Positions 4,803 to 41,220 of a stretch of 64,000 nt of DNA are shown one piece after another. Position 1 is the first letter of the stretch; every line of letters starts with the position of its first letter. Location of the stretch: the UHGV virus genome UHGV-1364441. One strand, written 5' to 3'. Both the position numbers and the translations under genes were made by a program. Under the pieces are notes generated by a model. That model did not search any database. It was given only the letters and a program-made list of their open reading frames with translations, and was not told where the DNA came from. The stretch is from a virus.

Positions 4803-4819
4803 TAGGTATTTCGCCACAT

Positions 4820-26496: not shown

Positions 26497-27209
26497 CCAG
26501 AATCACTAAATTGCGCATATCAGAGATTATTGCACGCATCGAAATGTATGGACACGGTGCTGGATATACGGCAGATGAGGTGTTGGAGCTTGCCAAAATA
26601 GCGTTAGCAACCTGCAAGGATGGTGAAACCATAAAGCTGATTGACTTGTTGGTGCAGGAGCTGCCAAAGCGTGGAGGGTGGCCTGATGATGTGCTCGATT
26701 GTCGCATGGTTAGAGAGGACGAGTATGAACCATCATATGGCCTCTTTGCTTTTGGCTCTGACCCAGCAAAAAGCCTGCGAGGACGCCATTTTTGCCTTGA
26801 GGTCAGACTCCCGATAAGTAACCTTGATCGTGAGGAATACACGGAAATAATTTCGCGCAAACAATACGAAGAGGCTCTAGAAGCATCCAGTAAGTTAAAT
26901 TTTGAGCAATGGCTGGAACAGCAACGCGGGAAAATCGATGTGGACTGTGGTTGTGTGTCCACTGAAACATTCATGCACTGGCTGCGGGTAGCTTACGAGG
27001 CTGGCAACCATCCGGATTTTCCGGATAGTTCCCAACAATCGCCCAAGAAAAGCGTAAAAACCACTCTGGAAAGAGGCTATCTTGAGGCCGCATTAAAGAT
27101 TAAGCCGGGCCATACGCTAGGCGTCATTGATGCCATGTTGGTTCATGAAATGGCGAAGGCTTTATTGCCGCTGGTGGCTGATAAAATTCCGAATAAAGCC
27201 GATATCTGA
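26493..27209 (+). CDS. Hypothetical protein (238 aa)
   Basis: ATGA-coupled start at MTRITKLRI. Confidence 0.5.
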   Translation: MTRITKLRISEIIARIEMYGHGAGYTADEVLELAKIALATCKDGETIKLIDLLVQELPKRGGWPDDVLDCRMVREDEYEPSYGLFAFGSDPAKSLRGRHFCLEVRLPISNLDREEYTEIISRKQYEEALEASSKLNFEQWLEQQRGKIDVDCGCVSTETFMHWLRVAYEAGNHPDFPDSSQQSPKKSVKTTLERGYLEAALKIKPGHTLGVIDAMLVHEMAKALLPLVADKIPNKADI

Positions 27210-27248
27210 TCACCATGCTAAAATCCCCTCAATTCACAGAGGGGATTT

Positions 27249-27521
27249 TTGTATATGTTGCATAGAGTTTTATGGAAAAGCGTTATTGTCGGCGCGATCT
27301 TGGCTATGTCTGGGTGTGCTATGGTGCAATACAATGACGGAGAAAAGGTTAGCATCCAGTCAGATGGTTGGTATGGCCTGGATAGCCTGCAAAAAACAGC
27401 GGATAAAGCCTGCCAGCAATACGGAAAGTCTAAAGCCGTATATCAGCATAGTGCTAACGCTAATCCTCATCTTGCGCCCGGAACAGGCGTTCAGAATACC
27501 ATCTGGAAATGTGAGCCTTAA
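27249..27521 (+). CDS. Small lipoprotein
   Basis: Signal peptide with lipobox-like LAMSGC. Confidence 0.5.
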
Positions 27522-27523
27522 AT

Positions 27524-27775
27524 ATGAGCGACTGGAATATTGCAGCTAAAAGTCAGGAAGAACGGGATAAGGTTAACGTTGATCTGGCTGCCAGCGGTGT
27601 GGCGTACAAAGAGCGATTGAACATACCTGTCATAGCTGAACAGGTAGCCCGCGAGCAACCAGAGAATCTGCGCACCTATTTCATGGAACGGCTACGGCAC
27701 TACCGGCAGTTAAGCCTCCAGTTGCCAAAAGGGAGCGATCCGGTGTATCAGAACGAGGATGCACCAAAAAAATAA
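27524..27775 (+). CDS. Hypothetical protein (83 aa)
   Basis: ORF directly after the lipoprotein gene. Confidence 0.4.
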
Positions 27776-27860
27776 CGGCAAGATGGGGGAGAAATGTGAT
27801 TAGCCCCCAGCGTGGCGCGCCTACAAACCCAGCTTTCACAAACTATGCCTTTTCAATGTA

Positions 27861-27880
27861 TACTGTATGAATAAACAGTA
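27861..27880. promoter_or_regulatory. LexA (SOS) box TACTGTATGAATAAACAGTA
   Basis: Perfect CTGT-N8-ACAG palindrome about 20 bp upstream of the HumD-like start. Confidence 0.7.
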
Positions 27881-27898
27881 TCATTAAGGTAAAACGCT

Positions 27899-28288
27899 AT
27901 GGGCTTCCCTTCTCCTGCGGCGGATTATGCAGAGAGCCGCATTTCTCTTGATCAGCAACTAATCAGACATCCTTCCGCGACCTACTTCATGCGGGCGGCA
28001 GACAGCCATCACCGTGAGGGAATATTGCAAGGTGCTTTGCTGGTGGTTGATTCCTCACTTACTCCGGTTGATGGTTCACTGCTTATATGCGCTATGGAGG
28101 GTGAATATCGCATAAAGAGATACAGGAAATATCCGCGCCAGCACCTGGAGGATTTAAGCACCGGGAAGAAAGAGGCGTTACCAGTAGATGACGATGGATG
28201 CACGGGCAGTAATGCTGTTTTTGGTGTGATCACTTATGTCATTAATGATGCCAGAAGTGGGGAGTTTGATTATAGACCTGTGATTTAA
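27899..28288 (+). CDS. humD: UmuD'-like protein (P1 HumD type, S24 LexA/UmuD fold)
   Basis: FPSPAADY ... SATYF ... LLVVDS ... EYRIKR pattern parallel to UmuD without the N-terminal cleaved tail. Confidence 0.7.
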   Translation: MGFPSPAADYAESRISLDQQLIRHPSATYFMRAADSHHREGILQGALLVVDSSLTPVDGSLLICAMEGEYRIKRYRKYPRQHLEDLSTGKKEALPVDDDGCTGSNAVFGVITYVINDARSGEFDYRPVI

Positions 28289-28333
28289 GGCGCATAAAGA
28301 AGCCCGCCAGACCAGGCGGGCTTTTTGTTGATA

Positions 28334-29428
28334 TCATTCAATGATTTTTTCGGCTGTCAGCCAGCTAATTTCATGCCTGTCTTTCGGCGGTTTTAGCATG
28401 TGAGCATATTCAGCGACATGCTCCCACGGAATTGTTTTTGCCCACTCAACGATAGCATTGTGATCTGCAGTGAAGAGTGGAATAGTGTGCGATTTCAACC
28501 ATTCTAATGTCGTGACGCCATGTTTTTTGGCGTGGTGCTGCGCATGATGCCGGGCTATCACTCGTAATGGCATTGTCCATTCACTACCATCAGGCATCGA
28601 AAAGCGCATTGTCTTCGGCATATCTGATTCAAGAACAGCCTCCCTAATACCAGGGAACTCACCAAGAATCATACGACGATAGTCATCACTATTTCGCCCG
28701 CCATACCTTTCGGCAAAATGATCAAGATATTCTTGGGTAATAAATGGTGAATCCTCCGCACTCAGCTTAATGGCTTTATATACACCACTCGTATTATCTT
28801 CAGCTAAAGCACGTCCATGATGTGAATCATAAAAAAAGCCTATTTCCTCTGGTGACGGAATTGAAGTGAGCAATATGCGTGAATCACCACTAGTCATGCT
28901 TGCCCACACAATGCTGTATGCCCGATCGCTGATATGTGCGGAATCCACAATAATGAATAAAAGATGGTCGGCGTAGTGACCTGCAATGCTATCTTCATAG
29001 TTAAGGCGGTAGTTACAAAAGCACATTCCCCAAAATTCATTGAACATCAGACCGCTATCACCGACCTTAAAATACTCAATGATAAAAGGTTGTTTTTTCA
29101 GCAATGCCTCCCAACATTGCCACACATATGCAACAATTCCTCTTTTGCAAGCATTTGATTTTGGATAAACAATTACTGTCCGGGAATCAGGATACATAAT
29201 CGTATAAAGGGTACTAATAACAGCAAGCACTTGCGGTCGTCCGATCCCATACGGAGTGGTGACAGTAGCTTTTGCATTATTGGGCTGTATAGCTTCAACA
29301 ATTTGTTGTTGCTGGTGGCTTAAATCAATATCAAACAATTCTTTTGCTGCCAGTACCCAATTGTCTTTATATTTCTCCACCAGCGACAGCCAGCGCGGAT
29401 CTTTATAAATATTGCTCTTAGTCGCCAT
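28334..29428 (-). CDS. Terminase-large-subunit paralog with degenerate ATPase motifs
   Basis: Resembles the PacB-like protein at 34728-36236 (shared FYDSHH block), but Walker A is TTPYGIGRPQV (no GKS/T) and Walker B is IIVDSAH. Confidence 0.55.
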   Translation of the reverse strand: MATKSNIYKDPRWLSLVEKYKDNWVLAAKELFDIDLSHQQQQIVEAIQPNNAKATVTTPYGIGRPQVLAVISTLYTIMYPDSRTVIVYPKSNACKRGIVAYVWQCWEALLKKQPFIIEYFKVGDSGLMFNEFWGMCFCNYRLNYEDSIAGHYADHLLFIIVDSAHISDRAYSIVWASMTSGDSRILLTSIPSPEEIGFFYDSHHGRALAEDNTSGVYKAIKLSAEDSPFITQEYLDHFAERYGGRNSDDYRRMILGEFPGIREAVLESDMPKTMRFSMPDGSEWTMPLRVIARHHAQHHAKKHGVTTLEWLKSHTIPLFTADHNAIVEWAKTIPWEHVAEYAHMLKPPKDRHEISWLTAEKIIE

Positions 29429-30185
29429 CTGCCACTTCCTTAACTTCTTCTTTGGCCTGTTCTGCAATCGCCGCACGGCATTTCGCCCTGGCTGTAGCGA
29501 TTGCTTCAGCTCGCACATCGTCTGGAATCGTTGACGTGATATACATATCCAGTTCTTCGGCACGGAATACTGTTTGGTCCAGATATTCGCGTAGCATCCA
29601 GGTAAATTCGAAATCACACGCGATAATCTCTGCGCTACCTTCTGCACCATTTGGGAAATGAATAAATGCCTGTTTAGCCAAACCGATAACACGACATGCG
29701 GTTGCCAAAACAGCGACAACCAGGTTTACATTTTCACACGCTACGGGCTGATTAACGCCGGAGATTACTCCATTTAACTGTCGGTTATATGGAAGGTAGT
29801 TTGAGATGCGTTCTACGCGCCATGTGCCAGTCAGGCTGCCATTTTTAAATATAATTGGTGTAACGGATAGCCCAAGCTCGCGTATAAGTCGTTGCGCTAT
29901 AGCAGGATCATTAAACAGGTCTAATGCTACACATTCGAAAGACTGCGCAAGGGCAAACAGTTCTTCCAGAGAGTAGTCTTTGCCCCTGGCGGTGATGTAA
30001 CGACGAACGCCGCTGTCTGCATCACTCCATATAGCTACGCCATGCTCTTCATTCAGCTCTTCATTAAAGCCGAGATACGTCATGATAGTGCGTTCAATCG
30101 TGTCAAACGGCAGTGACATGTCGGCGTTAACAGCCACCAGCAGGCCATTACGCAAGCGGTATTGAATTGTTTTAGTGCTTTCCAT
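29418..30185 (-). CDS. Hypothetical protein (255 aa)
   Basis: Stop overlaps the start of the terminase paralog. Confidence 0.5.
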   Translation of the reverse strand: MESTKTIQYRLRNGLLVAVNADMSLPFDTIERTIMTYLGFNEELNEEHGVAIWSDADSGVRRYITARGKDYSLEELFALAQSFECVALDLFNDPAIAQRLIRELGLSVTPIIFKNGSLTGTWRVERISNYLPYNRQLNGVISGVNQPVACENVNLVVAVLATACRVIGLAKQAFIHFPNGAEGSAEIIACDFEFTWMLREYLDQTVFRAEELDMYITSTIPDDVRAEAIATARAKCRAAIAEQAKEEVKEVADGD

Positions 30186-30191
30186 GTCAAA

Positions 30192-30854
30192 TCACTCCAC
30201 AACAAACCAGTCACAGGCCAGCAGGTCGCCAACTGAAGGCACCCACGGAACAACTACACCTTGTGCATTTTTTAAGGCGAAATAAGCACCATACGGAACG
30301 AGGTCGCCGGGGAAATATCCCTTAATGGCTTCCATTCGTGCCGGGTACTGTCCTTCGGGAACCAGCCAGCAGAATTGGTTTTCGCCGTTCCACCCGCGTC
30401 GAGCAACTTTCTTGCCATCCTTCAACCACATCAGCGCGTCAGAAAAGTCGGCTGCTTCAAGGTCGATTTCTTCTTGTAGAGTAGCGATACCGCCAGCAGA
30501 AATAGTTACGTCCCTGGCTGTAATGAATGTCACCCCATTGTGACCTTCAATGCTGAGCGATACCCCATTTTCGGAGGCGTCGTTAACCCGGCTATAGCAT
30601 TTTTCAAATGCTTTCTCTGGCACATAGACCAGATAACCATTTTCAGCAGTGACGAGATATCCTCCTATTTGCGGTCGGAACTTTTCCAAGAACACACCAT
30701 CAACACGAAGCGTCATTCCTTTTGGCTCCACGACTTCGATGCTGCCAAAAATGGGCGCATAAGCTTTGCCGACAATAACAATATCTTTGATTTTCGATGC
30801 CCGAATGATGCTGTGGCATTTGTATTTGGGGAACACCTGAAAAGTGCTGGCCAT
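30192..30854 (-). CDS. Protein with C-terminal DUF2829-like domain
   Basis: ALMWLKDGKKVARRGWNG ... PWVPSVGDLLACDWFVVE pattern. Confidence 0.5.
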   Translation of the reverse strand: MASTFQVFPKYKCHSIIRASKIKDIVIVGKAYAPIFGSIEVVEPKGMTLRVDGVFLEKFRPQIGGYLVTAENGYLVYVPEKAFEKCYSRVNDASENGVSLSIEGHNGVTFITARDVTISAGGIATLQEEIDLEAADFSDALMWLKDGKKVARRGWNGENQFCWLVPEGQYPARMEAIKGYFPGDLVPYGAYFALKNAQGVVVPWVPSVGDLLACDWFVVE

Positions 30855-30868
30855 AATCCTTCCTCTAC

Positions 30869-31363
30869 TTAAAACTTTGCGTACTGAAGCGGTGTACGCT
30901 TGATTTCAACGCGGCCTTCCGATGTGCTACCAAAGCCACCAGCACCACGCTCCGTTTCGTTGAGTTCCTCAACCTCGACTAGTGAGACTTGTTCAACACG
31001 CTCAAAAATTCCTTGCATGACAGCCATTCCAGGCTTGAGACAAACGCCTTCCCCGCCTGGATCAGTAATCAGTTTTGCCATGATTTCGCCGCGATAATCG
31101 GAGTCGATAATTCCTACGCAGTTAGCCAGGCGAGTATGTTTTTTGCAGCCCAATCCTGATCGCGGATAGAGTTTCAGACACCAGCCGGGCGGGATCTCCA
31201 TAGCCAGTCCGGTATACACCCACCAGCTTGAGGAAATTGCACCATTGCTATCGACGCATGGTTTTATTTCAACAGCCTCAAAATCCATCGCCGCCGATCC
31301 GGAGGTGGCATAAGCTGGAAGTTTTGCTGCCGGATGTAGGCGTTTCACTTTTACGTAAATCAT
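30869..31363 (-). CDS. dut: dUTP diphosphatase
   Basis: dUTPase motifs RSGLG, GIIDSDYRGE, GFGSTS. Confidence 0.85.
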   Translation of the reverse strand: MIYVKVKRLHPAAKLPAYATSGSAAMDFEAVEIKPCVDSNGAISSSWWVYTGLAMEIPPGWCLKLYPRSGLGCKKHTRLANCVGIIDSDYRGEIMAKLITDPGGEGVCLKPGMAVMQGIFERVEQVSLVEVEELNETERGAGGFGSTSEGRVEIKRTPLQYAKF

Positions 31364-31836
31364 TGTTTTTTAGCTCTCTGCGTGAAGGTGTAAACCCGAC
31401 GTTTGATATGTGGAACGGTAGGAACAGGAAGACAGGAACTTTCAATAACTCCTTGCTCCTCCAGCGATCGCACCGCCCGCAAGAACTGCGACGTGTCGCC
31501 GCCAAACTGGCGGGCATAGGTGCTGCCGTTATGAAGTATTTGAGCTATTACCCGAGCTTTTGTCTGGCTGTCACGATATGCGAATAGCCGCACGGCCTCT
31601 TCTGGCGCAATCGCTAACTGATAGCCTTTCCCGGCACGGTGTCGAATGAATCCATGCGCCAGTAGGTTTTTGAGTTCGTTACGAGTGCGAACAGATCCGT
31701 AATCCAGGAAGTGTGGATTGATAACGACTGGCTTAAACCATTCCGTAGGTGCTTTAGCTAATAGAGCTAACAGCTTCCCGGACAATTCTGGATAGGAAGA
31801 CGGGTAACAATTCAGAGATGGGTAATAAGTTTTCAC
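31360..31836 (-). CDS. Hypothetical protein, possible winged-helix DNA-binding
   Basis: 158-aa ORF coupled to dut. Confidence 0.45.
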   Translation of the reverse strand: MKTYYPSLNCYPSSYPELSGKLLALLAKAPTEWFKPVVINPHFLDYGSVRTRNELKNLLAHGFIRHRAGKGYQLAIAPEEAVRLFAYRDSQTKARVIAQILHNGSTYARQFGGDTSQFLRAVRSLEEQGVIESSCLPVPTVPHIKRRVYTFTQRAKKQ

Positions 31837-32177
31837 CGACGCCCCCTTGCCGGATATCGACCTGCATTAGTATCCGGTGCAATAAAGCCGGTAGTGGGGC
31901 GAGTGAAAGCGAGATTAATCTTCTCGACCATAGTGCGATAATTTTCCTGATAGTGGGCCAGGAGTTTTTCGGCGGCAATGATGGTTACTTTCCGGACGTA
32001 GCTTTCTGCTTCCTCCAGATTTCGCCAGTTTTTTTCGAGGGTAAACACAGGGACGGCCTCAAGCCCGGTCATGATGCCGAACACAACGACAGCATGACTG
32101 TTCTTAACACCAGCGGCGAAGGTTACGGTGTAACCATCCACCTTGAAGCGTCTTGATTCCGTGATTTGACTCTGCAA
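31833..32177 (-). CDS. Hypothetical protein (114 aa)
   Basis: First gene after the operator-like site at 32233-32252. Confidence 0.45.
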   Translation of the reverse strand: MQSQITESRRFKVDGYTVTFAAGVKNSHAVVVFGIMTGLEAVPVFTLEKNWRNLEEAESYVRKVTIIAAEKLLAHYQENYRTMVEKINLAFTRPTTGFIAPDTNAGRYPARGRR

Positions 32178-32232
32178 AGCACCCTCCTAAATAGGCGAGG
32201 GTACTTTACAGCAAAGGCGTTAATCTAAAAAG

Positions 32233-32252
32233 ATGTGTTAGAAATTTAATTT
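32233..32252 (+). promoter_or_regulatory. Operator-like motif ATGTGTTAGAAATTTAATTT at the 3' end of the recombinase gene
   Basis: Instance of the recurrent motif. Confidence 0.45.
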
Positions 32253-33279
32253 ACGAATCCATCAGGCGGCTATTAGCCCCCACAGACACGCCACCACGGC
32301 GAAGATACCGCATAAGTGTTTCCGGTTTCTTCCAGGTTCCTTCCTGCATGATCTCCACCATAGACACCTGCTTTTCAGCCATATCAATAGCGGCCCCGAC
32401 GCGTGCACTATGCCCGGTCCACGTCCGGTATCTTCCTTTGTTTGGCGTAGCATCTCTTTTATTCAGCAACACCCAGGCGTCGCTGAATATTTTCTCCATT
32501 GCAGGTGCAGTAAGGGGCGTTGTCGTGATCCTGGCCTTATTGCTACGGTGTATCGGCGGGAACAGCACTGCGTCAGGATGTTCGCGAAGCCCGGAAACAT
32601 CCAGCCAGTCATTCAGCACAGCGGTAGTGCGACGGGAAAGCACCTTATCAAGCCCGGCGGCGGTCGTTATTGTCTTCGTGTGTGAAATATGTAGCGTGAC
32701 AGTGTCACCTGTTTGGTCCAGATCTCCTACACGAATACGCGAGATTTCCGACATACGCATCAGCGTATTGTATGCAACAAAGAGAAAAGCCCGGTTGCGC
32801 AGATCCACCAGCCGTTCTGACCTGGACAACAGGACGTCGAGCAGTTTCAGATCGTCCCACCGCAGCGGTATAGCCTGGCCTGTTCGTTCGCCTTTTTCAG
32901 TTGCCGCTTCGCGCCGGATGCGCCGCATAGCCAGAGAAACACTTTTATCATCCGAAAGTGGCGGAAGGCCACAATGCGAAAGCAGCATGTTCAGCATGGC
33001 GTAGTGCTTATCAATGGTGGTCGAAGCCAGATCGGCATCATGCAGCTGAAGAAAATACTCGCGGGCCATTTCTGGTGAGATCGGAAACCAGGCAAGCTGG
33101 CGAGCGTGACACCAGCGCGCCCAGGAATGAAACACCAAACGGAGGTCGCGCAGAGTATTCGGCGCATAAGCTCCCTGGTCATTCATGAACCGCATAAAGT
33201 TTTCTGCGGCTTCCTGGTACTCTTTGCCAATGTTGCGCAGAAAACCACCGGAACTGCCAGAGATAATTAATTCACTCAT
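32251..33279 (-). CDS. dre: Cre-family tyrosine recombinase, Dre-like
   Basis: 342 aa, colinear with P1 Cre (WFP, LSxxGLP, VSLxMRRIR, YNTL, WxGHSARVGAA, EIMQ blocks); adjacent rox-like site. Confidence 0.85.
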   Translation of the reverse strand: MSELIISGSSGGFLRNIGKEYQEAAENFMRFMNDQGAYAPNTLRDLRLVFHSWARWCHARQLAWFPISPEMAREYFLQLHDADLASTTIDKHYAMLNMLLSHCGLPPLSDDKSVSLAMRRIRREAATEKGERTGQAIPLRWDDLKLLDVLLSRSERLVDLRNRAFLFVAYNTLMRMSEISRIRVGDLDQTGDTVTLHISHTKTITTAAGLDKVLSRRTTAVLNDWLDVSGLREHPDAVLFPPIHRSNKARITTTPLTAPAMEKIFSDAWVLLNKRDATPNKGRYRTWTGHSARVGAAIDMAEKQVSMVEIMQEGTWKKPETLMRYLRRGGVSVGANSRLMDS

Positions 33280-33431
33280 GAAACTATTTAACCTCTATAT
33301 ACAGATGACGCTACGCGAAAAATATAAAAATGACAGGGTAGCTATAAGTTAATTTTCAAGATTCAAGCCTTTGATTCGAGGCACGTATTTTCAGTGATGT
33401 CAATACTGATCATCTACCCATGATTATAGCC

Positions 33432-33463
33432 TAACTTTAAATAATGCCAATTATCTAAAGTTA
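33432..33463. other. rox-like recombination site TAACTTTAAATAAT-GCCA-ATTATCTAAAGTTA
   Basis: 14-bp inverted arms (1 mismatch) around a 4-bp spacer, about 150 bp upstream of the recombinase start; 31/32 identical to the rox site as I recall it. Confidence 0.75.
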
Positions 33464-33634
33464 GAAATTTAGGAATTTTTTTTCTTTCCGCGCAGATGGG
33501 CAATGCATTGCTGGTGTGGGCTTTAAGTTATGCCTGGCAGTTTTTAAGCAGAATTTTCTAAATTGGATGATAAAAAAATGCATCTTGATCCTTTACTCAC
33601 CCTGTTATTCGGCATAGATTTGTCATAGTAATTT

Positions 33635-33652
33635 TATGTTAGAAAACTAAAT
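33635..33652 (+). promoter_or_regulatory. Operator-like motif TATGTTAGAAAACTAAAT about 15 bp upstream of the 33665 start
   Basis: Instance of the recurrent motif. Confidence 0.45.
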
Positions 33653-33664
33653 CGAGTAGGAATA

Positions 33665-34702
33665 ATGAGTAAGAAGTCGATCGAGAAAGAGTACAAACGG
33701 TTCCTGCAAACCGCTGAACGGTGGAAAGAGCTGGTGGTCGCAAACTCTGTTTTCCATGATACCAGTTATTCCGGCGAGGAATTCCGCCATGTTGCACTAA
33801 CACATGATCAGAATGTGCTAGAAGAAGCTGAAAAGTGCCTCACAGAATGGAAAGCCTTTGTTGACTTGTGCCGTAACGCTGACGGCAAAGCGTCTAACAT
33901 TGTTGAGTCTGTATATTCTCCGATCCCATTCATTATCGAGGACACAAATCAAAGCACGCATATTGTTGTGCAAAGCGCGACCACCACCCGCTCATTTACG
34001 CGCGAAAATCTGCTCAAAAAATATGATGCAATTATAAAGAAAAGCCTGAAAAACAAGATATTTTCGCAGATTGTTGGTGCACTTGAAGAAGAGCGCCGTT
34101 TTTTCGCATCAGAACCTGAAGGGGAAGTTTACCGGGCGCGCAAAGATGGATACACAGATGTAGTGCTTACAACAAACATTGAAGGCAGCAATGCTCTGTC
34201 ACGATTCAGGGTAGGCGCACACGGAGCCTTAGTGTTCGCAAAACTTCCGAACACCACAGTGCCCGTTGTTAATAATGTCGGCGAACGTCGCAGCATTACT
34301 ATTTATTCTGGGGTTGAGTCGATACCTTGCGGCCTGCTTGGTGACTTTAGTCTCTATCGCGTTCGCGATCTGGAGAAACACCAACCAAGCTATGTTGCGA
34401 AGTCATACATCTTGCGAAACATCGACATCCGCAATGAGAGCTTAAAGAACAAATCAGCCAAAATGCTTGAGGAAGCCGATCCGGCTATTCGCCATATCAT
34501 TGAGCGTAAAATACAGACAGCACGCGAAGCGATGGCGCGACTGAATAAAATGGATCTGGAGTTGTTAGACGTAATGATGACATCCGGAGATGACCTGACA
34601 GGCATAAAACTGACAGACGCGCGGAAAAGATACGGTAAAACCATAGAAGAACGTTACGGGTTCACTTTCTCCCAAACACAGCACGCCGCTAAACTCTGGT
34701 AA
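33665..34702 (+). CDS. Hypothetical protein; candidate C1-like master repressor (by position only)
   Basis: Sits between the rox site and pacB, convergent with pacB, as c1 does in P1; operator-like motif just upstream; no sequence-level assignment made. Confidence 0.4.
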   Translation: MSKKSIEKEYKRFLQTAERWKELVVANSVFHDTSYSGEEFRHVALTHDQNVLEEAEKCLTEWKAFVDLCRNADGKASNIVESVYSPIPFIIEDTNQSTHIVVQSATTTRSFTRENLLKKYDAIIKKSLKNKIFSQIVGALEEERRFFASEPEGEVYRARKDGYTDVVLTTNIEGSNALSRFRVGAHGALVFAKLPNTTVPVVNNVGERRSITIYSGVESIPCGLLGDFSLYRVRDLEKHQPSYVAKSYILRNIDIRNESLKNKSAKMLEEADPAIRHIIERKIQTAREAMARLNKMDLELLDVMMTSGDDLTGIKLTDARKRYGKTIEERYGFTFSQTQHAAKLW

Positions 34703-34727
34703 TCATAAGCCCCGCATTGCCGGGGCT

Positions 34728-36236
34728 TTATATATCCAGATCTGGCATTTCCACATCTGCAAGAACCTGATCGCGGAAGGTAGCCATTTCAGCGCCGATA
34801 TCTTCATTAGCAGGAACATAGTCCACCAGCATTGTAAAGCAGTAGGTATCCCATCGGTCAGGTGATTTGATGTTCAGCTTTTGCCGCATGTGCTCCTTGC
34901 GCATCATCGCCATCTTCCCTTCTTCATTAAGTAAAAAGGGGATTTTTGACGCTTGCTCTGCCGTTTTAGGGTCACTGTCTATTCGCATACGACCTGACTT
35001 TATGGCATCACGAGCCATAATATTTGCGTAGGCACGCTGGTTAACAAAACGCTCCTTGTCTTTGTTCGAAAACATGGGTTTCCCCCACCGAATCCGTACC
35101 GGATTAGCCCCACGGCGCACCAGCTGCGCACAGGTATCTGAACCAAAACCGTCTGCGTCAACCGCGATTGTAATATTCGGGTATTTATCCGGCGTGCATT
35201 CGTTGTATATAAAGTCAGCAAAAGCCAGCGGGTCCATAGTCCCTGGCATTTCCATTACCTTAAAGTTAACAACACGCCGCTTTTCCCGGTGACCAGACAC
35301 TTTACAGATATTAAGAACTGACTTGTCTCGCCCGTTACCAACGTCAGCAGTAGCCACCCATCCCCAGTTTTTCTCCAACAACACCTTGCGCCGCGCAGCG
35401 CGATCGCATTCATCACGACCAAGCAAATAGCCGTTAATCTCCCGAGGAAACTGACCAAGAACCTTGACCATGTACTCAATAGAATCGCGCCCGCCATATT
35501 CCAGGAGTTTCTGCCTGATGAATTGTGGTGTGACGAACGGTGATTCTTCTGAGTTAAGAACAATTGCTGTCCAGATCCCTTTCGGGTTGTCTGGGGTTTT
35601 AGCTTGAGAATGGTGCGAATCGTAGAAATAACCACTTGGCCTTGTTGGCTGGGATAGCATCAACATTCGGTTATCTTCTTCAGTCAGAGCGCCAGTCATT
35701 ACGCCGATCGCTTTATCAGATATACCTGATGCTTCATCCAGAATTAGAAGCAAATGTGCCGCGTGCTCCCCCGCCAGAGCTTCTTCGTTACCGAGTCGAT
35801 AGCCTTTGCAGAGAACTTCCCAGATCCCCTTTCGAGAGCGTTCATAAAACATGGTGTCAGACAGGACAAAATAGGTCTGTAACCACCCATGACGCTTAAC
35901 GGCATTCGCCCAATACTGTTTAACGTATTTAAATACACCTGTCTTAACCTGACCTATTTTGTTAGCAACAATGATGACACGGGCATCGGGGAACAGAATC
36001 AAATAAATCAGCAACAACATAGCCGTTAGCGACGATTTCCCTGTACCGTGACCAGAGGTAACAGTGGTTCTGCTCCCTTTTTGCTGTACGGACTGGATAA
36101 TCTCCTGCTGCTGGTGGGAGGGAAACATCCCGAATATATCAACAACAGCCTGGGTAAAGTTGTAGCGGTATTTGATTACCATATCGCGCCAGCGTGGATC
36201 GCTGGTGACGCATTTAATCTTGCGCCCACCAGCCAT
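34728..36236 (-). CDS. pacB: Terminase large subunit (PacB-like)
   Basis: Walker A TSGHGTGKSS and Walker B LLILDEASGI; 502 aa; coupled to upstream small-subunit-like gene. Confidence 0.7.
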   Translation of the reverse strand: MAGGRKIKCVTSDPRWRDMVIKYRYNFTQAVVDIFGMFPSHQQQEIIQSVQQKGSRTTVTSGHGTGKSSLTAMLLLIYLILFPDARVIIVANKIGQVKTGVFKYVKQYWANAVKRHGWLQTYFVLSDTMFYERSRKGIWEVLCKGYRLGNEEALAGEHAAHLLLILDEASGISDKAIGVMTGALTEEDNRMLMLSQPTRPSGYFYDSHHSQAKTPDNPKGIWTAIVLNSEESPFVTPQFIRQKLLEYGGRDSIEYMVKVLGQFPREINGYLLGRDECDRAARRKVLLEKNWGWVATADVGNGRDKSVLNICKVSGHREKRRVVNFKVMEMPGTMDPLAFADFIYNECTPDKYPNITIAVDADGFGSDTCAQLVRRGANPVRIRWGKPMFSNKDKERFVNQRAYANIMARDAIKSGRMRIDSDPKTAEQASKIPFLLNEEGKMAMMRKEHMRQKLNIKSPDRWDTYCFTMLVDYVPANEDIGAEMATFRDQVLADVEMPDLDI

Positions 36237-37600
36237 TAGTCATCCTCCGGCGGTTCTATCGCAATATCATCATCTCCGGCGTCATACCCTGCATCTGATG
36301 CATCATAATCACCGTAAATTTCAGCCGTTGCCGAAGGGTCAATGTCCAACTCTTCATCGTTGGCCTCGAATTCCCCAGCCTTACGCTCGCCATTGTGGTC
36401 GTAATCTCCGCACCCCAGATCTTCAACAATGGTTGCCACATCCGCCCGGCGCTCTGCCAGCCATTGCGGATGGTTAGCCTGAAGCGATGCAAACTCCTTC
36501 GCTTCTTTGTCCAGCTGTTCATCATCAACATCATTGATGTCAGAAACTGGAGGTTCGAGAAGAGTGATAGCTTTCGCCGCGCGCGCCGCGAGGATAGCCG
36601 GGACACTGACACCCTGACGCTCGATGTATTCAGCAACACCGATATCGTCCAGCTCCTCGCGCTCACGCATACGTATAGCGGCGGCGATAACTCTGGCTGC
36701 GCGTGCGTCAGCGCCAATGCGATATTCAATCTCTTTGCCACGCTGTTCGGCCTGTAGGCGTGCTAATTCGAGTTTTTCTCTGGCCTCGGCCTCTCTGAAT
36801 GCTTGCTGGCGAGCACCCTGACGAAGTTTTTCATCACCCTGTCGCAGCTTTTGTTCGGACTGATATATCGCTGCCAACCTACTGATAAAATCGTTCATGT
36901 AGTAGGCCGCGTCACTGATTAGACCGAGAAGTCGCTGCCCAGGGTGCATTCCTTCTGGCTGTTCATCACCCAGGGCGTCTATCTCCGCCTGTAGGCGTTC
37001 GGCCTCCTGATCAACAATGCTTTGGTACTGAAGTGCGCGTTCTTGCGCCATTTGAATTGCTAACCGCAGGTGCTCTTCTGCGCCGTTCTTCATCATGTCG
37101 CGAGCCACACTCGTAGTGGGCAACGTGGCACGCTGCACAGCACCGCCAGGGATCATTGCTGAAGATCCCTCGATTTTTGAGGCGCATTTATCTTCGGTGG
37201 GGATCATTTTCGCCATTTTTTCGCGCAATGATCTCCTGACAGATTCTTTTATCTCATTGTTATTATTTGCATTATTTTCATGATCCGAAGTTTTCTTTCT
37301 CGGCATACTTCGGAAAGAACCTGTGCCCTGTGAATTGTCAATTTCTGTAAATTTTGTTGTTTCTGTACCCTCTTCTGGTCTTTTTTTTGCTCTTCCTGCC
37401 CGTTTTTTTTGAGGTGATTTGGTGCTTTTTTTTGTAGTCTTCACCTGCGACCGCACCTCATTTTTTTTCATATTGAGATGCTTTCTGGCGGTATTGAAGC
37501 TAAGGTCGTGTTGCTCGCAGTATTCCTTTACGGTGATCCCTTTTTCTTCACGCAACGCTATAAATTTGGCGCGGTGCTCTTCCCAATTAACCAGACTCAT
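36236..37600 (-). CDS. pacA: Terminase small subunit / pac-recognition protein (PacA-like)
   Basis: N-terminal HTH (ITVKEYCEQHDLSFNTARKHL), acidic C-terminus, immediately upstream of pacB-like gene. Confidence 0.55.
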   Translation of the reverse strand: MSLVNWEEHRAKFIALREEKGITVKEYCEQHDLSFNTARKHLNMKKNEVRSQVKTTKKSTKSPQKKRAGRAKKRPEEGTETTKFTEIDNSQGTGSFRSMPRKKTSDHENNANNNNEIKESVRRSLREKMAKMIPTEDKCASKIEGSSAMIPGGAVQRATLPTTSVARDMMKNGAEEHLRLAIQMAQERALQYQSIVDQEAERLQAEIDALGDEQPEGMHPGQRLLGLISDAAYYMNDFISRLAAIYQSEQKLRQGDEKLRQGARQQAFREAEAREKLELARLQAEQRGKEIEYRIGADARAARVIAAAIRMREREELDDIGVAEYIERQGVSVPAILAARAAKAITLLEPPVSDINDVDDEQLDKEAKEFASLQANHPQWLAERRADVATIVEDLGCGDYDHNGERKAGEFEANDEELDIDPSATAEIYGDYDASDAGYDAGDDDIAIEPPEDD

Positions 37601-37989
37601 AAAGCAACACCACGCTTTTTAACGGCGGCATTCCACAGCTTATTCGCCATGTCCACCAGCTCTCGTTGCTCTTTTCGCGCCTGTTCGACTGATTTCCTGC
37701 TACAGTTTTTAACCAGTAAGCTACCGTATTCAGGGGTGCGCCCGCGCACCTTGAACTGATATCCGTTCAGGCCATGCAACCAGTATTTCCGTGGGTAAAC
37801 ACGATCATCAAGCTCACAAATAGCTCGGCTTGACCGCACAAAATGCCGAATGATGTTGGTTACACTTACTCGTGAAACATGAAGGTGAGGATATTTTTCT
37901 TTAGCTAGAGTGGTGATTTCGGTGACTGTCAGATAGCAGTCAGCCCTAATCATGATATCCGCAATTTCTGCGCTGCTGATATGCTCCAT
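37597..37989 (-). CDS. Hypothetical protein (130 aa)
   Basis: ATGA-coupled to the pacA-like gene. Confidence 0.45.
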   Translation of the reverse strand: MEHISSAEIADIMIRADCYLTVTEITTLAKEKYPHLHVSRVSVTNIIRHFVRSSRAICELDDRVYPRKYWLHGLNGYQFKVRGRTPEYGSLLVKNCSRKSVEQARKEQRELVDMANKLWNAAVKKRGVAL

Positions 37990-38065
37990 TAATCCCCCAG
38001 GCAGGAAATGACCGAGGGGATGATAATGAGAATGTTATTTCTGTATAGACTGGCAAAAAGTTGGT

Positions 38066-38097
38066 TATATTAGAAAATTAATTCCATTCATCTAACG
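38066..38097. promoter_or_regulatory. Operator-like pair TATTAGAAAATTAATT ... TCTAACG (degenerate)
   Basis: Variant of the recurrent motif between two minus-strand genes. Confidence 0.4.
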
Positions 38098-38490
38098 CTA
38101 CCAGCGAGATAAGCGAACGACGTGTTTTACCTTAGCGATCCACTTACCACGTGAGTTATTAATTACGGCCTGCGCCACCTTTAAGCTGACTTCAAAATCA
38201 GCCTTACGACCATCAGAATCCACCAGCGTTGCACCGTCTATTTCCGGCAGGCTTAAATAATCCTGTTCTACCTCTAATGGCATTGACGGCTCTCTGAATG
38301 GTGTCAATTGCCGAGCTTTCCAGATAAAGCGAACTCTCAATCCCCTATAAGCCATTACCATGTAGCCTGTTATCGTGCTCTTATGGCCTGCATCAGTACG
38401 CGCAGCATTACACGATACAATCTTACAGGTGACGATATTCCACTCCACGTTGGAGACTTCGTGAATGCTTAATTTTGTTGTCTCGTACAT
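38098..38490 (-). CDS. Hypothetical protein (130 aa)
   Basis: ORF coupled to the upstream gene. Confidence 0.45.
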   Translation of the reverse strand: MYETTKLSIHEVSNVEWNIVTCKIVSCNAARTDAGHKSTITGYMVMAYRGLRVRFIWKARQLTPFREPSMPLEVEQDYLSLPEIDGATLVDSDGRKADFEVSLKVAQAVINNSRGKWIAKVKHVVRLSRW

Positions 38491-39065
38491 CAGAATGCCT
38501 CCCAGTCAGTTGCGATAATATCCACGCCAGTTGCGAACCAGTCTGTCTGCGCCTGTAAATCCCCATTCATCATTACCAGGCGAGGCATAACCATCACATC
38601 GCACCCTTCCACAATATCGAATGCCTCTTCCGGCAAGAATTCGAAGAGCTTTTCTTTGCTGCCAATGCTGCCACGGAACATCGATAAATAGCTCCCTTTA
38701 GGCCATGATGCCCGGCGGGCATCCAGCCCCTTCATCATCCAGAACATGGCGGCAGAAAAATTGATGTTCTTTTTGGCGATGAAAACATTATTGGCTTCTG
38801 TTTGCTTCAGAAACTTAATTAGCCTTGCCATCGACTCGGATAACGCTACGTATGGCTCATGATTGGCTGCGGACACGCTCACACCATGTAATCCAACACT
38901 GACTACCGTCATATCGCCGCTTTGAGCGGTTTCAATGTTGACACCTTTGCGAACTAACGAGGCATAAAGTTCCTCTCGCTTTTGTGTCCAGCGTTCCCGC
39001 TGACCGATGAAGTCACTCAATATGAGGTCTGCTTCTGCATACGCGTTATCGTTCGCCGTTAACAT
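38490..39065 (-). CDS. Hypothetical protein with DUF2829-like segment
   Basis: AAMFWMMKGLDARRASWPKGSYL resembles the DUF2829 pattern of 30192-30854. Confidence 0.4.
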   Translation of the reverse strand: MLTANDNAYAEADLILSDFIGQRERWTQKREELYASLVRKGVNIETAQSGDMTVVSVGLHGVSVSAANHEPYVALSESMARLIKFLKQTEANNVFIAKKNINFSAAMFWMMKGLDARRASWPKGSYLSMFRGSIGSKEKLFEFLPEEAFDIVEGCDVMVMPRLVMMNGDLQAQTDWFATGVDIIATDWEAF

Positions 39066-39519
39066 AACGTCTCCTTTTTACACGCGCGACCATCCCTCGG
39101 TTAAACCGATAGAGATGTCGAAACTTCGTATTAATTAAGGGTTACAGCCTGAGCGGCTATATGATGAATTGAAAGGAGTTGTGGCGGTGGTGCCTCCACC
39201 TGCCAGGTCAGCCACGCCCGGCGACGACACTTATCAGAACCGCAATTAATGAAAATGGCTTCGTCACGAGCGCATAGCCGCAATTACCACAACGGAAACG
39301 GTGCTCACGCTAATTAAACGCCTTTTCCTGTTGTGCGCCGTGCTCTTCCGGCTGTCACACCGAATCGCCAGGGTGGTGAGTCCTCGGTCCGACGATATGA
39401 ACGGGGCTTGCACATTCCGGCTACCTGGTTTGTTGCCTGAGCTAGGGGAAAAGGTAACCCCTTTAACGTCACCAGACCGCTAACGACGCATGTGCCATAC
39501 GCCGTGTTACAACCAAATA

Positions 39520-39595
39520 TGGTGGCCCCTACCGGACTTGAACCGGTGACCGTGCGATTATGAGTCGCCAGCTCTAACCACTGAGCTAAAGGGCC
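39520..39595 (-). tRNA. tRNA-Ile2 (anticodon CAU, lysidine type) or tRNA-Met-like
   Basis: Manual fold: 7-bp acceptor stem, CCA encoded, anticodon loop CUCAUAA; close to E. coli ileX; one mismatch at the base of the anticodon stem. Confidence 0.75.
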
Positions 39596-39604
39596 AGATT
39601 ACTG

Positions 39605-39733
39605 TTAATTCCGCTTACGCTTTTTGCCAGAACCGCGTAAGGCTTTTGCCGCTTGCTCGATCCCATATGCAACCACCAGCAGAAATAAAAATGTCCAACC
39701 AGGGTTCTTATCGGCAAAGGCCCAAAAATCCAT
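39605..39733 (-). CDS. Possible 42-aa membrane peptide (MDFWAFADKNPGWTFLFLLVVAYGIEQAAKALRGSGKKRKRN)
   Basis: Own translation; one TM helix plus basic tail; weak RBS. Confidence 0.25.
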   Translation of the reverse strand: MDFWAFADKNPGWTFLFLLVVAYGIEQAAKALRGSGKKRKRN

Positions 39734-40007
39734 CACTTGCAGCTACCTTTTAAGACAAAACGCCATTGCTGTTAGATTGCGGTGCCTGGTGCCTCCAGGT
39801 GACGTTAACCAGTTAACAATTAACGCCGGGATGTTTGACTTCACTATTGAGGAAAATTGTTTTAACTGTTCCGCGTGCGCTTAGCCGCATTCACCGCAAT
39901 GGTAAGAGCACTTGGCTGGCTGGGCGGCGATGACGCCTGTACGCATTTGGTGATCCGGTTCTGCTTCCGGCATTCGCTTAATTAGCCAAATACTCTTAAC
40001 GTTGCGC

Positions 40008-40094
40008 TGGCGGAGAGTAATGGAATCGAACCATCATCGCTTGCGCAATGGGACGGTTTTCAAGACCGCTTGAGCACCATGCTCCCTACTCTCC
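40008..40094 (-). tRNA. tRNA-Ser (anticodon UGA), type II with long variable arm
   Basis: Manual fold: 7-bp acceptor, 3-bp D-stem, anticodon loop CUUGAAA, variable-arm hairpin with GCAA loop, T-loop TTCGATT, CCA encoded. Confidence 0.65.
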
Positions 40095-40478
40095 GGCCGT
40101 TGTGGTGGCCGGTACTGAATCTCCGGCATACGGTGCAGCCAATTAGGACTACGGACGATCACCGCTCGCGAAAGGGAAGGTTTGCGGCCGCATTTCCCTA
40201 ACATCCAAGAAAGCTATCGCATCAGTCTGCGAATCCACCACAACGTTGAGAACACTGGTTGTCACGCTGCAACGCAACATTTATTCGTAGATTGGGATAT
40301 GACCCCGTTACGTCAGTGTTCTCAACGTTGTAGTACCGGTTACGGTTCCGGCCAGGCCTCTTCCTCAACGGGGTATTCTCCATACGGACTACCGTTTATT
40401 GGTCGTTCCTGCGGTTTATGTTGTGAAGCCAGATGCTTATCTTCTGGTTGCTTCAAAGAGCTGCACTTCATCACAACG

Positions 40479-40552
40479 GTAAGGGTACTTCGTAGGGATT
40501 CGAACCCTCTGCCAAGCACGGCGATCTCCGACGTCGCAAAATACCCTTACCT
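40479..40552 (-). other. tRNA-like fragment or structured element (T-arm-like GGGTTCGAATCCC inside a 10-bp closing stem)
   Basis: Does not fold as a canonical cloverleaf (no D or anticodon arm in register, no CCA). Confidence 0.3.
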
Positions 40553-40559
40553 GTTGTGT

Positions 40560-40635
40560 TGGTGCCGATTAACGGACTCGAACCGCTGACATCCTGCTTA
40601 CAAGGCAGGCGCTCTACCAACTGAGCTAAACCGGC
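40560..40635 (-). tRNA. tRNA-Thr (anticodon UGU)
   Basis: Manual fold: canonical cloverleaf, anticodon loop CUUGUAA, CCA encoded. Confidence 0.85.
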
Positions 40636-40637
40636 AT

Positions 40638-40714
40638 TGGCGATGGTGGGTGGATTCGAACCACCGACCGACAGCTTAGAAGGCTGCTGCTCTATCCTAC
40701 TGAGCTACACCATC
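40638..40714 (-). tRNA. tRNA-Arg (anticodon UCU)
   Basis: Manual fold: canonical cloverleaf, anticodon loop CUUCUAA, CCA encoded; 2 nt from tRNA-Thr. Confidence 0.85.
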
Positions 40715-41220
40715 ACTTGCCGGGTACGTCTCCGGCGAGGGCTTCCACCTCCGTATGCTTTTCGGCGCACCGCGCCCTGGCTGCAATTCAGTAACAGGGG
40801 ATGCATAACCCTGGCTTCCAGCGTGATAAGCGCCTTCAGCATGACGGGATATACCCGTAACCAACAAACTTTCCCATATACCATCAAACAATGGCTGTTA
40901 CGCGGGAGGGACGTAACAGGTAAGGGCGCTGACCAGAAAGACCTGACCCTTCTCATTCATCTGGTTAATCACACCAGCGCCCTTGCCTGTTATGCCTCCC
41001 CGTTCCCTAATACACAGACGGGGTCACTCTGCGGTCGATTTTTTGACGGGGGACGACTCATACCCCGTGGCGTCTGGCTTCTTAGGCCGCTACCATCATC
41101 AGATCATCGTTTGCATTTACTTTAATGGTCGGTTTCTAAACCGCCGCAAAGCCGCTAACCATGACGAAAACCCTAAAAAAGCCCACCCGAAGATGGGCAA
41201 ATACGCTACATCTCACACAA

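What the first reader, a model, noticed from the sequence alone, without database searches (positions are those of the whole stretch)
30192..39065. Two separate proteins carrying DUF2829-like segments
The C-terminus of 30192-30854 and the middle of 38490-39065 both carry the pattern A-(L/M)-x-W-(L/M)-K-x-G-x-x-(A/V)-R-R-x-x-W, which I associate with DUF2829, an uncharacterised phage-linked domain. Two copies in different operons is unusual.
Basis: inference. Interest (0 to 1): 0.35.

Follow-up and report, generated by a model that had tools for sequence, protein, structure and literature searches.

The report
Two Tad2-like immune-signal sponge genes
A D6/P1-type phage-plasmid of E. coli carries two distantly related genes whose C-terminal halves belong to the Tad2 (formerly DUF2829) family, whose tested members are phage proteins that soak up bacterial immune alarm molecules; one copy is an ordinary member and the other is a rare, altered variant whose target is unknown.

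Summary
Both ORFs match Pfam PF11195 (Tad2-like, formerly DUF2829) above the curated cut-off: 80.2 and 38.7 bits against 25. They are the only two such ORFs in the window.

The window is a D6-like, P1-related phage-plasmid of E. coli.

Protein 1 (30192-30854, minus strand) has a basic OB-like N-terminal barrel, a disordered linker and a Tad2 domain. That domain is about 45% identical to ModTad2 (PDB 9EIB), which sponges His-ADPR and cUMP/cCMP, and it keeps the GWNG and W-x-P-S-x-x-D pocket motifs.

Protein 2 (38490-39065, minus strand) has an acidic dsRBD-like N-terminal domain and a divergent Tad2 domain. Its phosphate-binding Asn-Gly is replaced by a single Pro. Its family is rare: 18 clusters among 1.84 billion representatives. 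In the three long D6-like contigs examined it lies upstream of lpa-pacAB.

The two domains are old paralogues (19-27% identity), not a recent duplication.

The domain is no longer uncharacterised. The motif as written is off by one residue. A published survey already reports Tad2 in 93% of D6-like and 56% of P1-like phage-plasmids, and at least five listed plasmids carry both genes.

Most likely both are anti-defence sponges with different ligands. This is reasonably supported for protein 1 and speculative for protein 2.

The parts
30192..30854 (-). Protein 1 (220 aa): OB-like N-terminal domain, linker and Tad2-like C-terminal domain. PGAP annotates it as 'DUF2829 domain-containing protein' in a 98%-identical plasmid.
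   Evidence: ORF; Pfam PF11195 80.2 bits; AlphaFold2 model with mean pLDDT 77; PGAP annotation in L015.
30579..30854 (-). Protein 1 N-terminal domain (residues 1-92): a small basic beta-barrel (pI 9.1), OB-like. It occurs without a Tad2 domain in other phages.
30468..30578 (-). Protein 1 linker (residues 93-129): low-confidence, acidic and variable between alleles.
   Evidence: pLDDT below 50; variable columns in alignment A1.
30195..30467 (-). Protein 1 Tad2 domain (residues 130-220), of the ModTad2 clade. It keeps G154-W155-N156-G157 and W204-x-P-S207-x-G-D210.
38490..39065 (-). Protein 2 (191 aa): dsRBD-like N-terminal domain plus a divergent Tad2-like C-terminal domain. Annotated 'hypothetical' in D6 (orf6) and in most plasmids.
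   Evidence: ORF; Pfam 38.7 bits; AlphaFold2 model with mean pLDDT 87.6; phrog_7362; annotations.
38775..39065 (-). Protein 2 N-terminal domain (residues 1-97): alpha-alpha-beta-beta-beta-alpha, dsRBD-like fold. It is acidic (pI 5.3), and I could see no KKxAK-type lysine motif in the sequence.
38493..38774 (-). Protein 2 Tad2 domain (residues 98-191): the core W121, W176, D182, D187 and W188 are kept. The Asn-Gly of GWNG is replaced by a single Pro122.
38098..38490 (-). 130-aa ORF directly downstream of protein 2 (the ATG overlaps the TGA). It is a frequent partner but not an obligatory one. No known domain.
   Evidence: Overlapping TGATG. Present after protein 2 homologues in L006, L007, L008, L010 and L011, with 35% identity in L011; absent in L009. 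No Pfam, PDB or NCBIfam match.
29418..30185 (-). isaA-like gene directly downstream of protein 1. The Tad2-like gene and isaA are also adjacent in P1-like phages.
   Evidence: 48% identical to P1 IsaA. The order ssb - DUF2829 gene - a gene in the isaA position is seen in Ro157c2YLVW, and SJ46 annotates isaA at the matching place. D6 orf113 next to orf114.
30869..31363 (-). dUTPase gene directly upstream of protein 1 (14-nt gap), in the same leftward gene string running from dre.
   Evidence: Pfam dUTPase, E=1.7e-14; D6 annotation.
33423..33450 (-). Sigma-70-like promoter (TTGGCA-16-TATAAT, 11 of 12) upstream of dre. It is a candidate promoter for the dre-orf2-orf3-dut-protein 1-isaA string. 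This is a consensus match only.

Best explanation
Both genes encode multi-domain members of the Tad2 (PF11195, formerly DUF2829) family. Characterised members are phage proteins that act as sponges: they form homotetramers whose interface pockets bind the nucleotide-derived alarm molecules made by bacterial signalling defence systems, so the effector is never switched on.

Protein 1 carries a ModTad2-type domain. It most likely sequesters a TIR-derived ADP-ribose signal such as His-ADPR from type II Thoeris, and possibly cyclic pyrimidine mononucleotides from Pycsar in a second pocket.

Protein 2 carries an old, divergent paralogue with a remodelled phosphate-binding loop. It most likely binds a different nucleotide signal that has not been identified. 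Together the two would give the D6-like phage-plasmid a two-sponge repertoire.

The extra N-terminal domains (OB-like in protein 1, dsRBD-like in protein 2) look like independent, exchangeable modules rather than parts of the sponge pocket.

Shown here: family membership, fold, which pocket residues are conserved or lost, the conserved gene positions, and the modular architecture. Inferred: tetramer formation, ligand identity, anti-defence activity and timing of expression.
For: Family and fold.
- Pfam matches above cut-off for both proteins.
- The protein 2 family profile hits all solved Tad2 structures at E=1e-14 to 1e-9.

Protein 1 pocket.
- It matches ModTad2 over 88 residues with a single one-residue gap, about 45% identity.
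- It keeps the equivalents of HgmTad2 W21/N22/G23, W87, S90 and D93. The double mutant W21A/N22A and the triple mutant S90A/T92A/D93A of HgmTad2 markedly reduced gcADPR binding.
- ModTad2 binds His-ADPR and blocks type II Thoeris. It also binds cUMP/cCMP in a second pocket and blocks Pycsar.

Selection.
- Intact homologues of protein 1 occur in 297 plasmid records, 198 of them Escherichia and 28 Salmonella. Most of the listed Escherichia/Salmonella records are about 90-105 kb, the size of P1/D6 phage-plasmids.
- Protein 2 homologues down to 33% identity lie upstream of lpa-pacAB-c1-dre in all three long contigs examined.
- Among the homologues recovered, mostly from E. coli and Salmonella contigs of about 90 kb, there are three alleles of the ligand-proximal insertion: 44, 35 and 52 residues. 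The 35-residue allele also changes GWNG to EWKG. This is what an arms race over ligand specificity would produce.

Context.
- A survey using an anti-defence finder already scores Tad2 in 93% of D6-like and 56% of P1-like phage-plasmids.
- Reference P1 lacks the gene: ssb is followed directly by isaA. A supplementary-figure legend describes P1 plated on Pycsar cells with and without MoTad2 or Tad2_70 as an example of those sponges overcoming Pycsar.

Modularity.
- Related proteins combine the same Tad2 domain with other modules: with a crAss001_48 domain, with a tail-fibre repeat, or with the OB-like domain.
- In the sister phages SopranoGao and SJM3 the protein that begins at the same locus position has the OB-like domain followed by Tad2 in one phage, and by an unknown domain plus crAss001_48 in the other.
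- D6 itself has a 146-aa version that lacks most of the OB-like domain.
Against: Characterised Tad2 sponges are single-domain proteins of about 90-105 aa that tetramerise through their N-terminal helix. Both proteins here carry about 95-130 extra residues directly N-terminal to that helix. That could hinder or change oligomerisation; no multimer prediction was available to test it.

Protein 2 lacks the Asn-Gly that contacts the diphosphate in HgmTad2 (SWP-KG instead of GWNGKG). It has T and V in place of S90 and T92. This position is not conserved within its own family either: P, R, D, M, H, N and G all occur.

Protein 2 also lacks the HgmTad2 cyclic-dinucleotide contacts: R31/S47/F70/N85 correspond to F/F/V/T (my mapping). 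By the criteria it would be scored as a non-binder of gcADPR.

I could not establish expression timing. No P1-type C1 operator or late-promoter motif was found near either gene.
Confidence: 0.55

Rival explanations
1. Protein 2 (and possibly protein 1) is not a sponge. The Tad2 fold serves as a small-molecule sensing or protein-binding module attached to a nucleic-acid-binding-type domain (dsRBD-like or OB-like). The protein would regulate or protect something in the phage-plasmid life cycle, for example by linking a host signal to the neighbouring late-gene activator lpa.
For: The diphosphate-contacting Asn-Gly is lost in protein 2 and is not conserved in its family. Protein 2 lies upstream of lpa-pacAB in all three long D6-like contigs examined. 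It is translationally coupled to a conserved 130-aa ORF of unknown function. The N-terminal folds resemble nucleic-acid-binding domains.
Against: No member of PF11195 is known to act in this way. The dsRBD-like domain is acidic (pI 5.3), and I could see no canonical lysine motif in it. The N-terminal modules are swapped or deleted between close relatives while the Tad2 domain is retained, which argues for independent modules. The 130-aa partner is absent from one lineage.
Confidence: 0.25
2. The proteins are anti-CRISPR proteins of the AcrIIA7 type.
For: AcrIIA7 (9kzr, 8kbi) is a DUF2829 protein and is among the PDB matches.
Against: The anti-Cas9 activity of AcrIIA7/HgmTad2 could not be reproduced in vitro or in vivo, and the protein does not bind Cas9. 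From general knowledge, E. coli and Salmonella carry type I rather than type II CRISPR systems, so there would be no target in these hosts.
Confidence: 0.03
3. The proteins are type I toxin-antitoxin toxins, as the PGAP name 'MW1434 family type I TA system toxin' on some homologues suggests.
For: PGAP gives that name to several homologues of both proteins.
Against: In the one paper found, MW1434 (81 aa, in prophage phi-Sa-2) appears only in a table of computationally selected candidate toxins. I read only the passages naming MW1434, not the section on type I toxin assays. No NCBIfam model matches either protein. The models are soluble globular folds; from general knowledge, type I toxins are typically small membrane peptides. 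Solved relatives are ligand-binding tetramers.
Confidence: 0.03
4. One or both genes are decaying remnants with no function.
For: Truncated and fused versions exist, for example a 146-aa form in D6 and a dUTPase-Tad2 fusion P0063. Reference P1 lacks the gene entirely.
Against: Both are intact ORFs with strong ribosome-binding sites. Full-length homologues are kept at 33-55% identity in the same position. Core residues are invariant across the families. Both AlphaFold2 models are confident in the folded domains.
Confidence: 0.04

Closest known systems
ModTad2 / MoTad2 (Myroides odoratus prophage Tad2; PDB 9EIB, 8V3E)
HgmTad2 (=AcrIIA7; PDB 8KBI-8KBM, 8WJC) and SptTad2 (8WJD)
   Same: Same fold; these are the best sequence-profile matches for the protein 2 family (E=1e-14 to 4e-13). 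Protein 1 keeps the gcADPR pocket residues W21, N22, G23, W87, S90 and D93.
   Different: The cyclic-dinucleotide pocket residues R31/S47/F70/N85 are not conserved in either protein. In protein 1 they correspond to V, deleted, Y and a gap; in protein 2 to F, F, V and T. In protein 2, N22-G23 is replaced by a single Pro.
SPO1 Tad2 (Gp34.65; PDB 8SME-8SMG, 8WJE)
   Same: Founding member of the family: an 89-aa DUF2829 protein and homotetrameric sponge for 3'cADPR that uses W25 and W73. Both tryptophans have equivalents in both proteins here (W155/W204 and W121/W176).
   Different: It is a single domain with a short insertion. Sequence similarity is weaker (E=6.5e-9 for protein 1, and only at profile level for protein 2).
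D6 orf114 and orf6, and the DUF2829 gene of P1-like phages (SJ46 J46_0048, Ro157c2YLVW gp12)
   Same: Direct orthologues. D6 orf6 is 92% identical to protein 2. SJ46 and Ro157c2YLVW carry the protein 1 type at about 81% identity, next to the isaA-position gene.
   Different: D6 orf114 is a 146-aa form lacking most of the OB-like domain. In P1-like phages the gene lies between ssb and isaA rather than after dut. Protein 2 has no match in the phage collection outside D6.

Membership tests
Tad2 / PF11195 (DUF2829) - homology | Match to the Pfam model above its gathering score | tested here: met
   Protein 1: 80.2 bits. Protein 2: 38.7 bits. Cut-off: 25 bits.
Tad2 / PF11195 - fold | [quoted passage not shown] | tested here: met
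Tad2 sponge - ADPR-signal pocket | Conserved pocket residues: W-N-G after helix 1 (HgmTad2 W21/N22/G23) and W...S-x-T-D (W87, S90, T92, D93) | tested here: met
   This row is for protein 1. W155-N156-G157, W204, S207 and D210 are present. T92 corresponds to G209, where ModTad2 has Ser.
Tad2 sponge - ADPR-signal pocket | The same pocket residues, assessed in protein 2 | tested here: not met
   W121, W176 and D182 are kept. N22-G23 is replaced by the single residue P122, S90 by T179 and T92 by V181. The Asn position is variable across the protein 2 family.
Tad2 sponge - cyclic-dinucleotide pocket (HgmTad2/SptTad2 type) | Long insertion carrying R31, S47, F70 and N85 | tested here: not met
   Neither protein conserves these residues (mapping). 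This is a subtype feature, not a requirement of the family.
Tad2 sponge - quaternary structure | Homotetramer of two V-shaped dimers, with pockets at the protomer interfaces | not testable with these tools
   Only monomer prediction was available. The N-terminal fusions lie directly before the tetramerisation helix.
Tad2 sponge - architecture | Small single-domain protein of about 90-105 aa | tested here: not met
   220 aa and 191 aa, each with an extra folded N-terminal domain. Multi-domain Tad2-like proteins of 150-270 aa are common among viral proteins, but I found none that has been characterised.
Tad2 sponge - activity | Binds an immune signal and abolishes Thoeris, Pycsar or CBASS defence | not testable with these tools
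   Requires biochemistry or phage infection assays.
dsRBD (double-stranded-RNA-binding domain), for the N-terminal domain of protein 2 | alpha-beta-beta-beta-alpha fold together with a basic RNA-contact surface (KKxAK-type motif at the start of helix 2) | tested here: inconclusive

The most novel reading that the evidence does not exclude
Protein 2 represents a rare clade of Tad2-like proteins found mainly in D6-like enterobacterial phage-plasmids. Its pocket has been rebuilt (loss of the Asn-Gly phosphate clamp), so that it sequesters an immune signalling molecule not yet known from Enterobacteria. Alternatively it senses such a molecule and passes the information through its dsRBD-like domain and the coupled 130-aa partner. 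As ModTad2 did for His-ADPR, it could then be used as bait to discover a new signal and its defence system.
Probability: 0.15. Interest if true: 0.6.

Novelty: new variant of a known kind. Interest (0 to 1): 0.3.

Why it matters
Sponges are a main way for phages to disarm signalling immunity such as Thoeris, CBASS and Pycsar, and they have been used as bait to identify new signals (His-ADPR was found with ModTad2).

P1/D6 phage-plasmids are common in clinical E. coli, Shigella and Salmonella. Knowing that the D6-like lineage carries two ancient, differently built Tad2-type genes, and that the P1/D6 gene pool holds several alleles of the ligand-proximal loop, gives concrete candidates for two things: mapping which host defences constrain these elements, and probing sponge specificity.

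It also explains a practical point. Laboratory P1 lacks the gene, so results obtained with P1 may understate the counter-defence capacity of its wild relatives.

The finding itself is a correct annotation rather than a surprise. Protein 1 is already labelled DUF2829 in RefSeq, and the presence of Tad2 in these elements has been published.

Tried and rejected
These checks gave nothing useful.

- NCBIfam scan of both proteins, their neighbours and three homologues: no hits.
- Searches for expression signals. The P1 C1 operator consensus with up to 3 mismatches gave 0 matches. The P1 late-promoter -22 motif gave 16 matches against about 30 expected by chance. A repeat search for D6-type operators in 27000-41000 gave only chance-like two-copy families. 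The generic sigma-70 scan found nothing directly upstream of protein 2. The timing of expression therefore remains unknown.
- Word-indexed homologue search with the OB-like N-terminal domain alone returned only fragments of the same protein. Its wider distribution came instead from tblastn and PHROGs.
- The idea that P1 isaB, or the IS1 insertion, disrupted a Tad2 gene is rejected. P1 IsaA is the orthologue of the downstream isaA-like gene (48% identity). Neither IsaA nor IsaB resembles protein 1, and P1 simply has ssb followed by isaA.
- The 139-aa ORF downstream of the distant homologue P0135 is not related to the 130-aa partner ORF.
- Rfam scan and folding of the conserved non-coding spacer upstream of protein 2: no family reached its threshold, and z-scores were -0.2 and -2.2.
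- The afdb50 fold library was not available.


Full report
WHAT THE WINDOW IS

The flagged interval lies in a D6-like, P1-related phage-plasmid of E. coli. Positions 31055-38345 match the deposited immC region of phage D6 at 92% identity. That record carries dut, orf3, orf2, dre, the rox site, c1, pacB, pacA and lpa. E. coli plasmids of about 90 kb match 91% of a 24-kb stretch at 97-98% identity. All genes discussed below lie on the minus strand, except c1.

CHECKING THE OBSERVATION

Both ORFs exist as described and have strong ribosome-binding sites.
- Pfam PF11195, now named 'Tad2-like' and formerly DUF2829, matches residues 136-219 of the 220-aa protein 1 at 80.2 bits.
- It matches residues 102-190 of the 191-aa protein 2 at 38.7 bits. 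The curated cut-off is 25 bits.
- A relaxed form of the motif matches both proteins and nothing else in all six frames.
- Profiles built from each protein's family find only these two ORFs in the window, and they find each other.
- In protein 2 the domain is the C-terminal half, not the middle.

HOW THE TWO ARE RELATED

They are homologous only at profile level: hhalign probability 98.7%, E=2.9e-16, 19% identity. BLASTP gives 27% identity at E=9e-4. They are old paralogues, not a recent duplication, and their N-terminal halves are unrelated.

PROTEIN 1 (30192-30854)

The AlphaFold2 model has two confident domains joined by a disordered linker at residues 93-129.
- It matches ModTad2 over 88 residues with a single one-residue gap.
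- Using the residue roles published for HgmTad2, protein 1 keeps W155-N156-G157 (W21/N22/G23), W204 (W87), S207 (S90) and D210 (D93).
- T92 corresponds to Gly in protein 1, where ModTad2 has Ser.
- The HgmTad2 cyclic-dinucleotide contacts R31/S47/F70/N85 are not kept.
[quoted passage not shown] It also inhibits Pycsar by binding cUMP/cCMP in a second pocket.

PROTEIN 2 (38490-39065)

The model is confident, with mean pLDDT 87.6.
- A profile of the protein's family hits every solved Tad2: SptTad2 1.1e-14, HgmTad2 3.9e-13, ModTad2 6e-10, SPO1 Tad2 1e-9.
- The structural core is kept: W121, W176, D182, D187, W188.
- The Asn-Gly that clamps the diphosphate in HgmTad2 is replaced by a single Pro (SWP-KG against GWNGKG).
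- S90 and T92 correspond to T and V. The cyclic-dinucleotide contacts correspond to F/F/V/T.
- Within the family the Asn position is P, R, D, M, H, N or G.
- That domain is acidic (pI 5.3), and I saw no canonical lysine motif in it. I describe it only as a dsRBD-like fold.

DISTRIBUTION AND CONTEXT

Protein 1 type:
- It has 128 clusters at 90% identity. Many come from E. coli, Salmonella or Shigella contigs of about 90 kb.
- It is found in 297 plasmid records.
- In P1-like phages (Ro157c2YLVW, SJ46) the gene lies between ssb and the isaA-position gene. Here and in D6 it lies after dut and before isaA.
- Reference P1 has no such gene; ssb is followed directly by isaA.

Protein 2 type:
- It is rare: 10 clusters at 90% identity and 18 representatives at 50% identity among 1.84 billion.
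- In the phage collection it occurs only in D6. It is found in 125 plasmid records.
- Homologues at 55%, 42% and 33% identity all lie upstream of lpa-pacA-pacB-c1-dre.
- A 130-aa ORF whose ATG overlaps the stop codon of protein 2 follows it in five of the six homologue contigs examined. That ORF is 35% identical where protein 2 is 33% identical, and it is missing in one lineage.

Both together:
- At least five of the listed plasmid records appear in both tblastn lists.
- A survey has already reported Tad2 in 93% of D6-like and 56% of P1-like phage-plasmids.

MODULARITY AND ALLELIC VARIATION

The Tad2 domain of protein 1 recurs at about 80% identity in other architectures: with a C-terminal crAss001_48 domain (PF21825), with a tail-fibre repeat, with longer unknown N-terminal regions, or fused to dUTPase.

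In the sister Klebsiella phages SopranoGao and SJM3, the protein that begins at the same locus position starts with the OB-like domain in both. It continues with Tad2 in SopranoGao. In SJM3 it continues with an unknown domain plus crAss001_48.

D6 itself has a 146-aa form lacking most of the OB-like domain.

Among the recovered homologues, mostly from E. coli and Salmonella contigs of about 90 kb, the segment between the two pocket tryptophans has three alleles of 44, 35 and 52 residues. The 35-residue allele also changes GWNG to EWKG and S-V-G-D to S-V-D-D. These C-terminal alleles are combined with different N-terminal alleles.

This looks like recombination of independent modules and diversification near the ligand site.

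MECHANISM

Best reading (confidence 0.55): both are anti-defence sponges.
- Protein 1 is a ModTad2-type sponge for a TIR-derived ADPR conjugate and possibly for cyclic pyrimidines. I put this part at roughly 0.6.
- Protein 2 is a sponge for a different, unidentified signal. I put this part at roughly 0.35-0.4.

Shown here: homology, fold, pocket conservation or loss, conserved gene position, modularity. Inferred: tetramer formation, ligand, activity, timing of expression.

The main rival (0.25) is that protein 2 uses the Tad2 fold for something other than sequestration.

Three other readings are unlikely:
- The AcrIIA7 anti-CRISPR reading, because that activity could not be reproduced.
- The PGAP label 'MW1434 type I toxin', which in the one paper found appears only in a table of computationally selected candidates.
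- The pseudogene reading.

VERDICT

The annotation is correct and modestly useful. Protein 1 is an ordinary new member of a well-studied family. Protein 2 is a rare variant with an altered pocket and an extra domain. I score interest at 0.3. The most novel reading still open is that protein 2 binds a new immune signal. I give that a probability of about 0.15.

Noticed in passing
window 28334-29425 (minus strand): A 363-aa ORF starts at the stop codon of the isaA-like gene. It is a paralogue of the ATPase half of the terminase large subunit PacB, 37% identical to PacB residues 10-264. Its Walker A (GHGTGKSS becomes PYGIGRPQ) and Walker B (LILDEA becomes FIIVDSA) look degenerate, and the nuclease half is replaced by unrelated sequence. 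It has no Pfam match, and PGAP calls it hypothetical. It lies in the same gene string as dut, the Tad2-like gene and isaA. One speculative idea is an inactive terminase decoy.
   Followed up: partly
window 39066-39519: A 454-nt non-coding spacer lies between tRNA-Met and protein 2. It is 95% conserved in D6. Its tRNA-proximal 186 nt are 87-95% identical in P1-family phages (P7, SJ46, RCS47, Ro157c2YLVW), where nothing is annotated. A central part matches Klebsiella phage SopranoGao; the 86 matching records also include Stx-converting phages, whose matched segment I did not examine. No Rfam family reached its threshold. Folding z-scores were -0.2 and -2.2.
   Followed up: partly
homologues of protein 1 (P0011-P0130; alignment A1): Three alleles of the Tad2 insertion occur among the recovered homologues, which come mostly from E. 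coli and Salmonella contigs of about 90 kb: 44, 35 and 52 residues between the two pocket tryptophans. The 35-residue allele changes GWNG to EWKG. The alleles are combined with different N-terminal domain alleles.
   Followed up: partly
L013 2486-3361 (Klebsiella phage SJM3) and L014 2486-3082 (phage SopranoGao): In these two sister phages the protein that begins at the same locus position starts with the same OB-like domain. It continues with Tad2 in SopranoGao, and with an unknown middle domain (phrog_419/1810) plus a crAss001_48 domain in SJM3. crAss001_48 is also found fused behind the Tad2 domain in P1-like plasmids.
   Followed up: partly
L005 (phage P1, NC_005856) 4052-5532: Reference P1 has ssb followed directly by isaA, with no Tad2-like gene between them, unlike SJ46 and Ro157c2YLVW. 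A supplementary-figure legend in a preprint describes P1 plated on E. coli Pycsar cells with and without MoTad2 as an example of that sponge overcoming Pycsar.
   Followed up: partly
window 40008-40095 (minus strand): A tRNA with anticodon UGA is called tRNA-Ser by ARAGORN. It scores 46.6 bits against the Rfam tRNA-Sec model, just under the 47-bit gathering score. The D6 record also flags its orthologue as unusual.
   Followed up: no
window 40237-40257 and 40314-40334: A 21-nt inverted repeat, 95% complementary, with 56 nt between the arms, lies between tRNA genes.
   Followed up: no
window 38098-38490 (minus strand): A 130-aa ORF is translationally coupled to protein 2 (overlapping TGATG). 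It has no match in Pfam, NCBIfam or PDB, and belongs to phrog_7004 of unknown function. It follows protein 2 homologues in five of the six homologue contigs examined and is absent in the sixth.
   Followed up: partly
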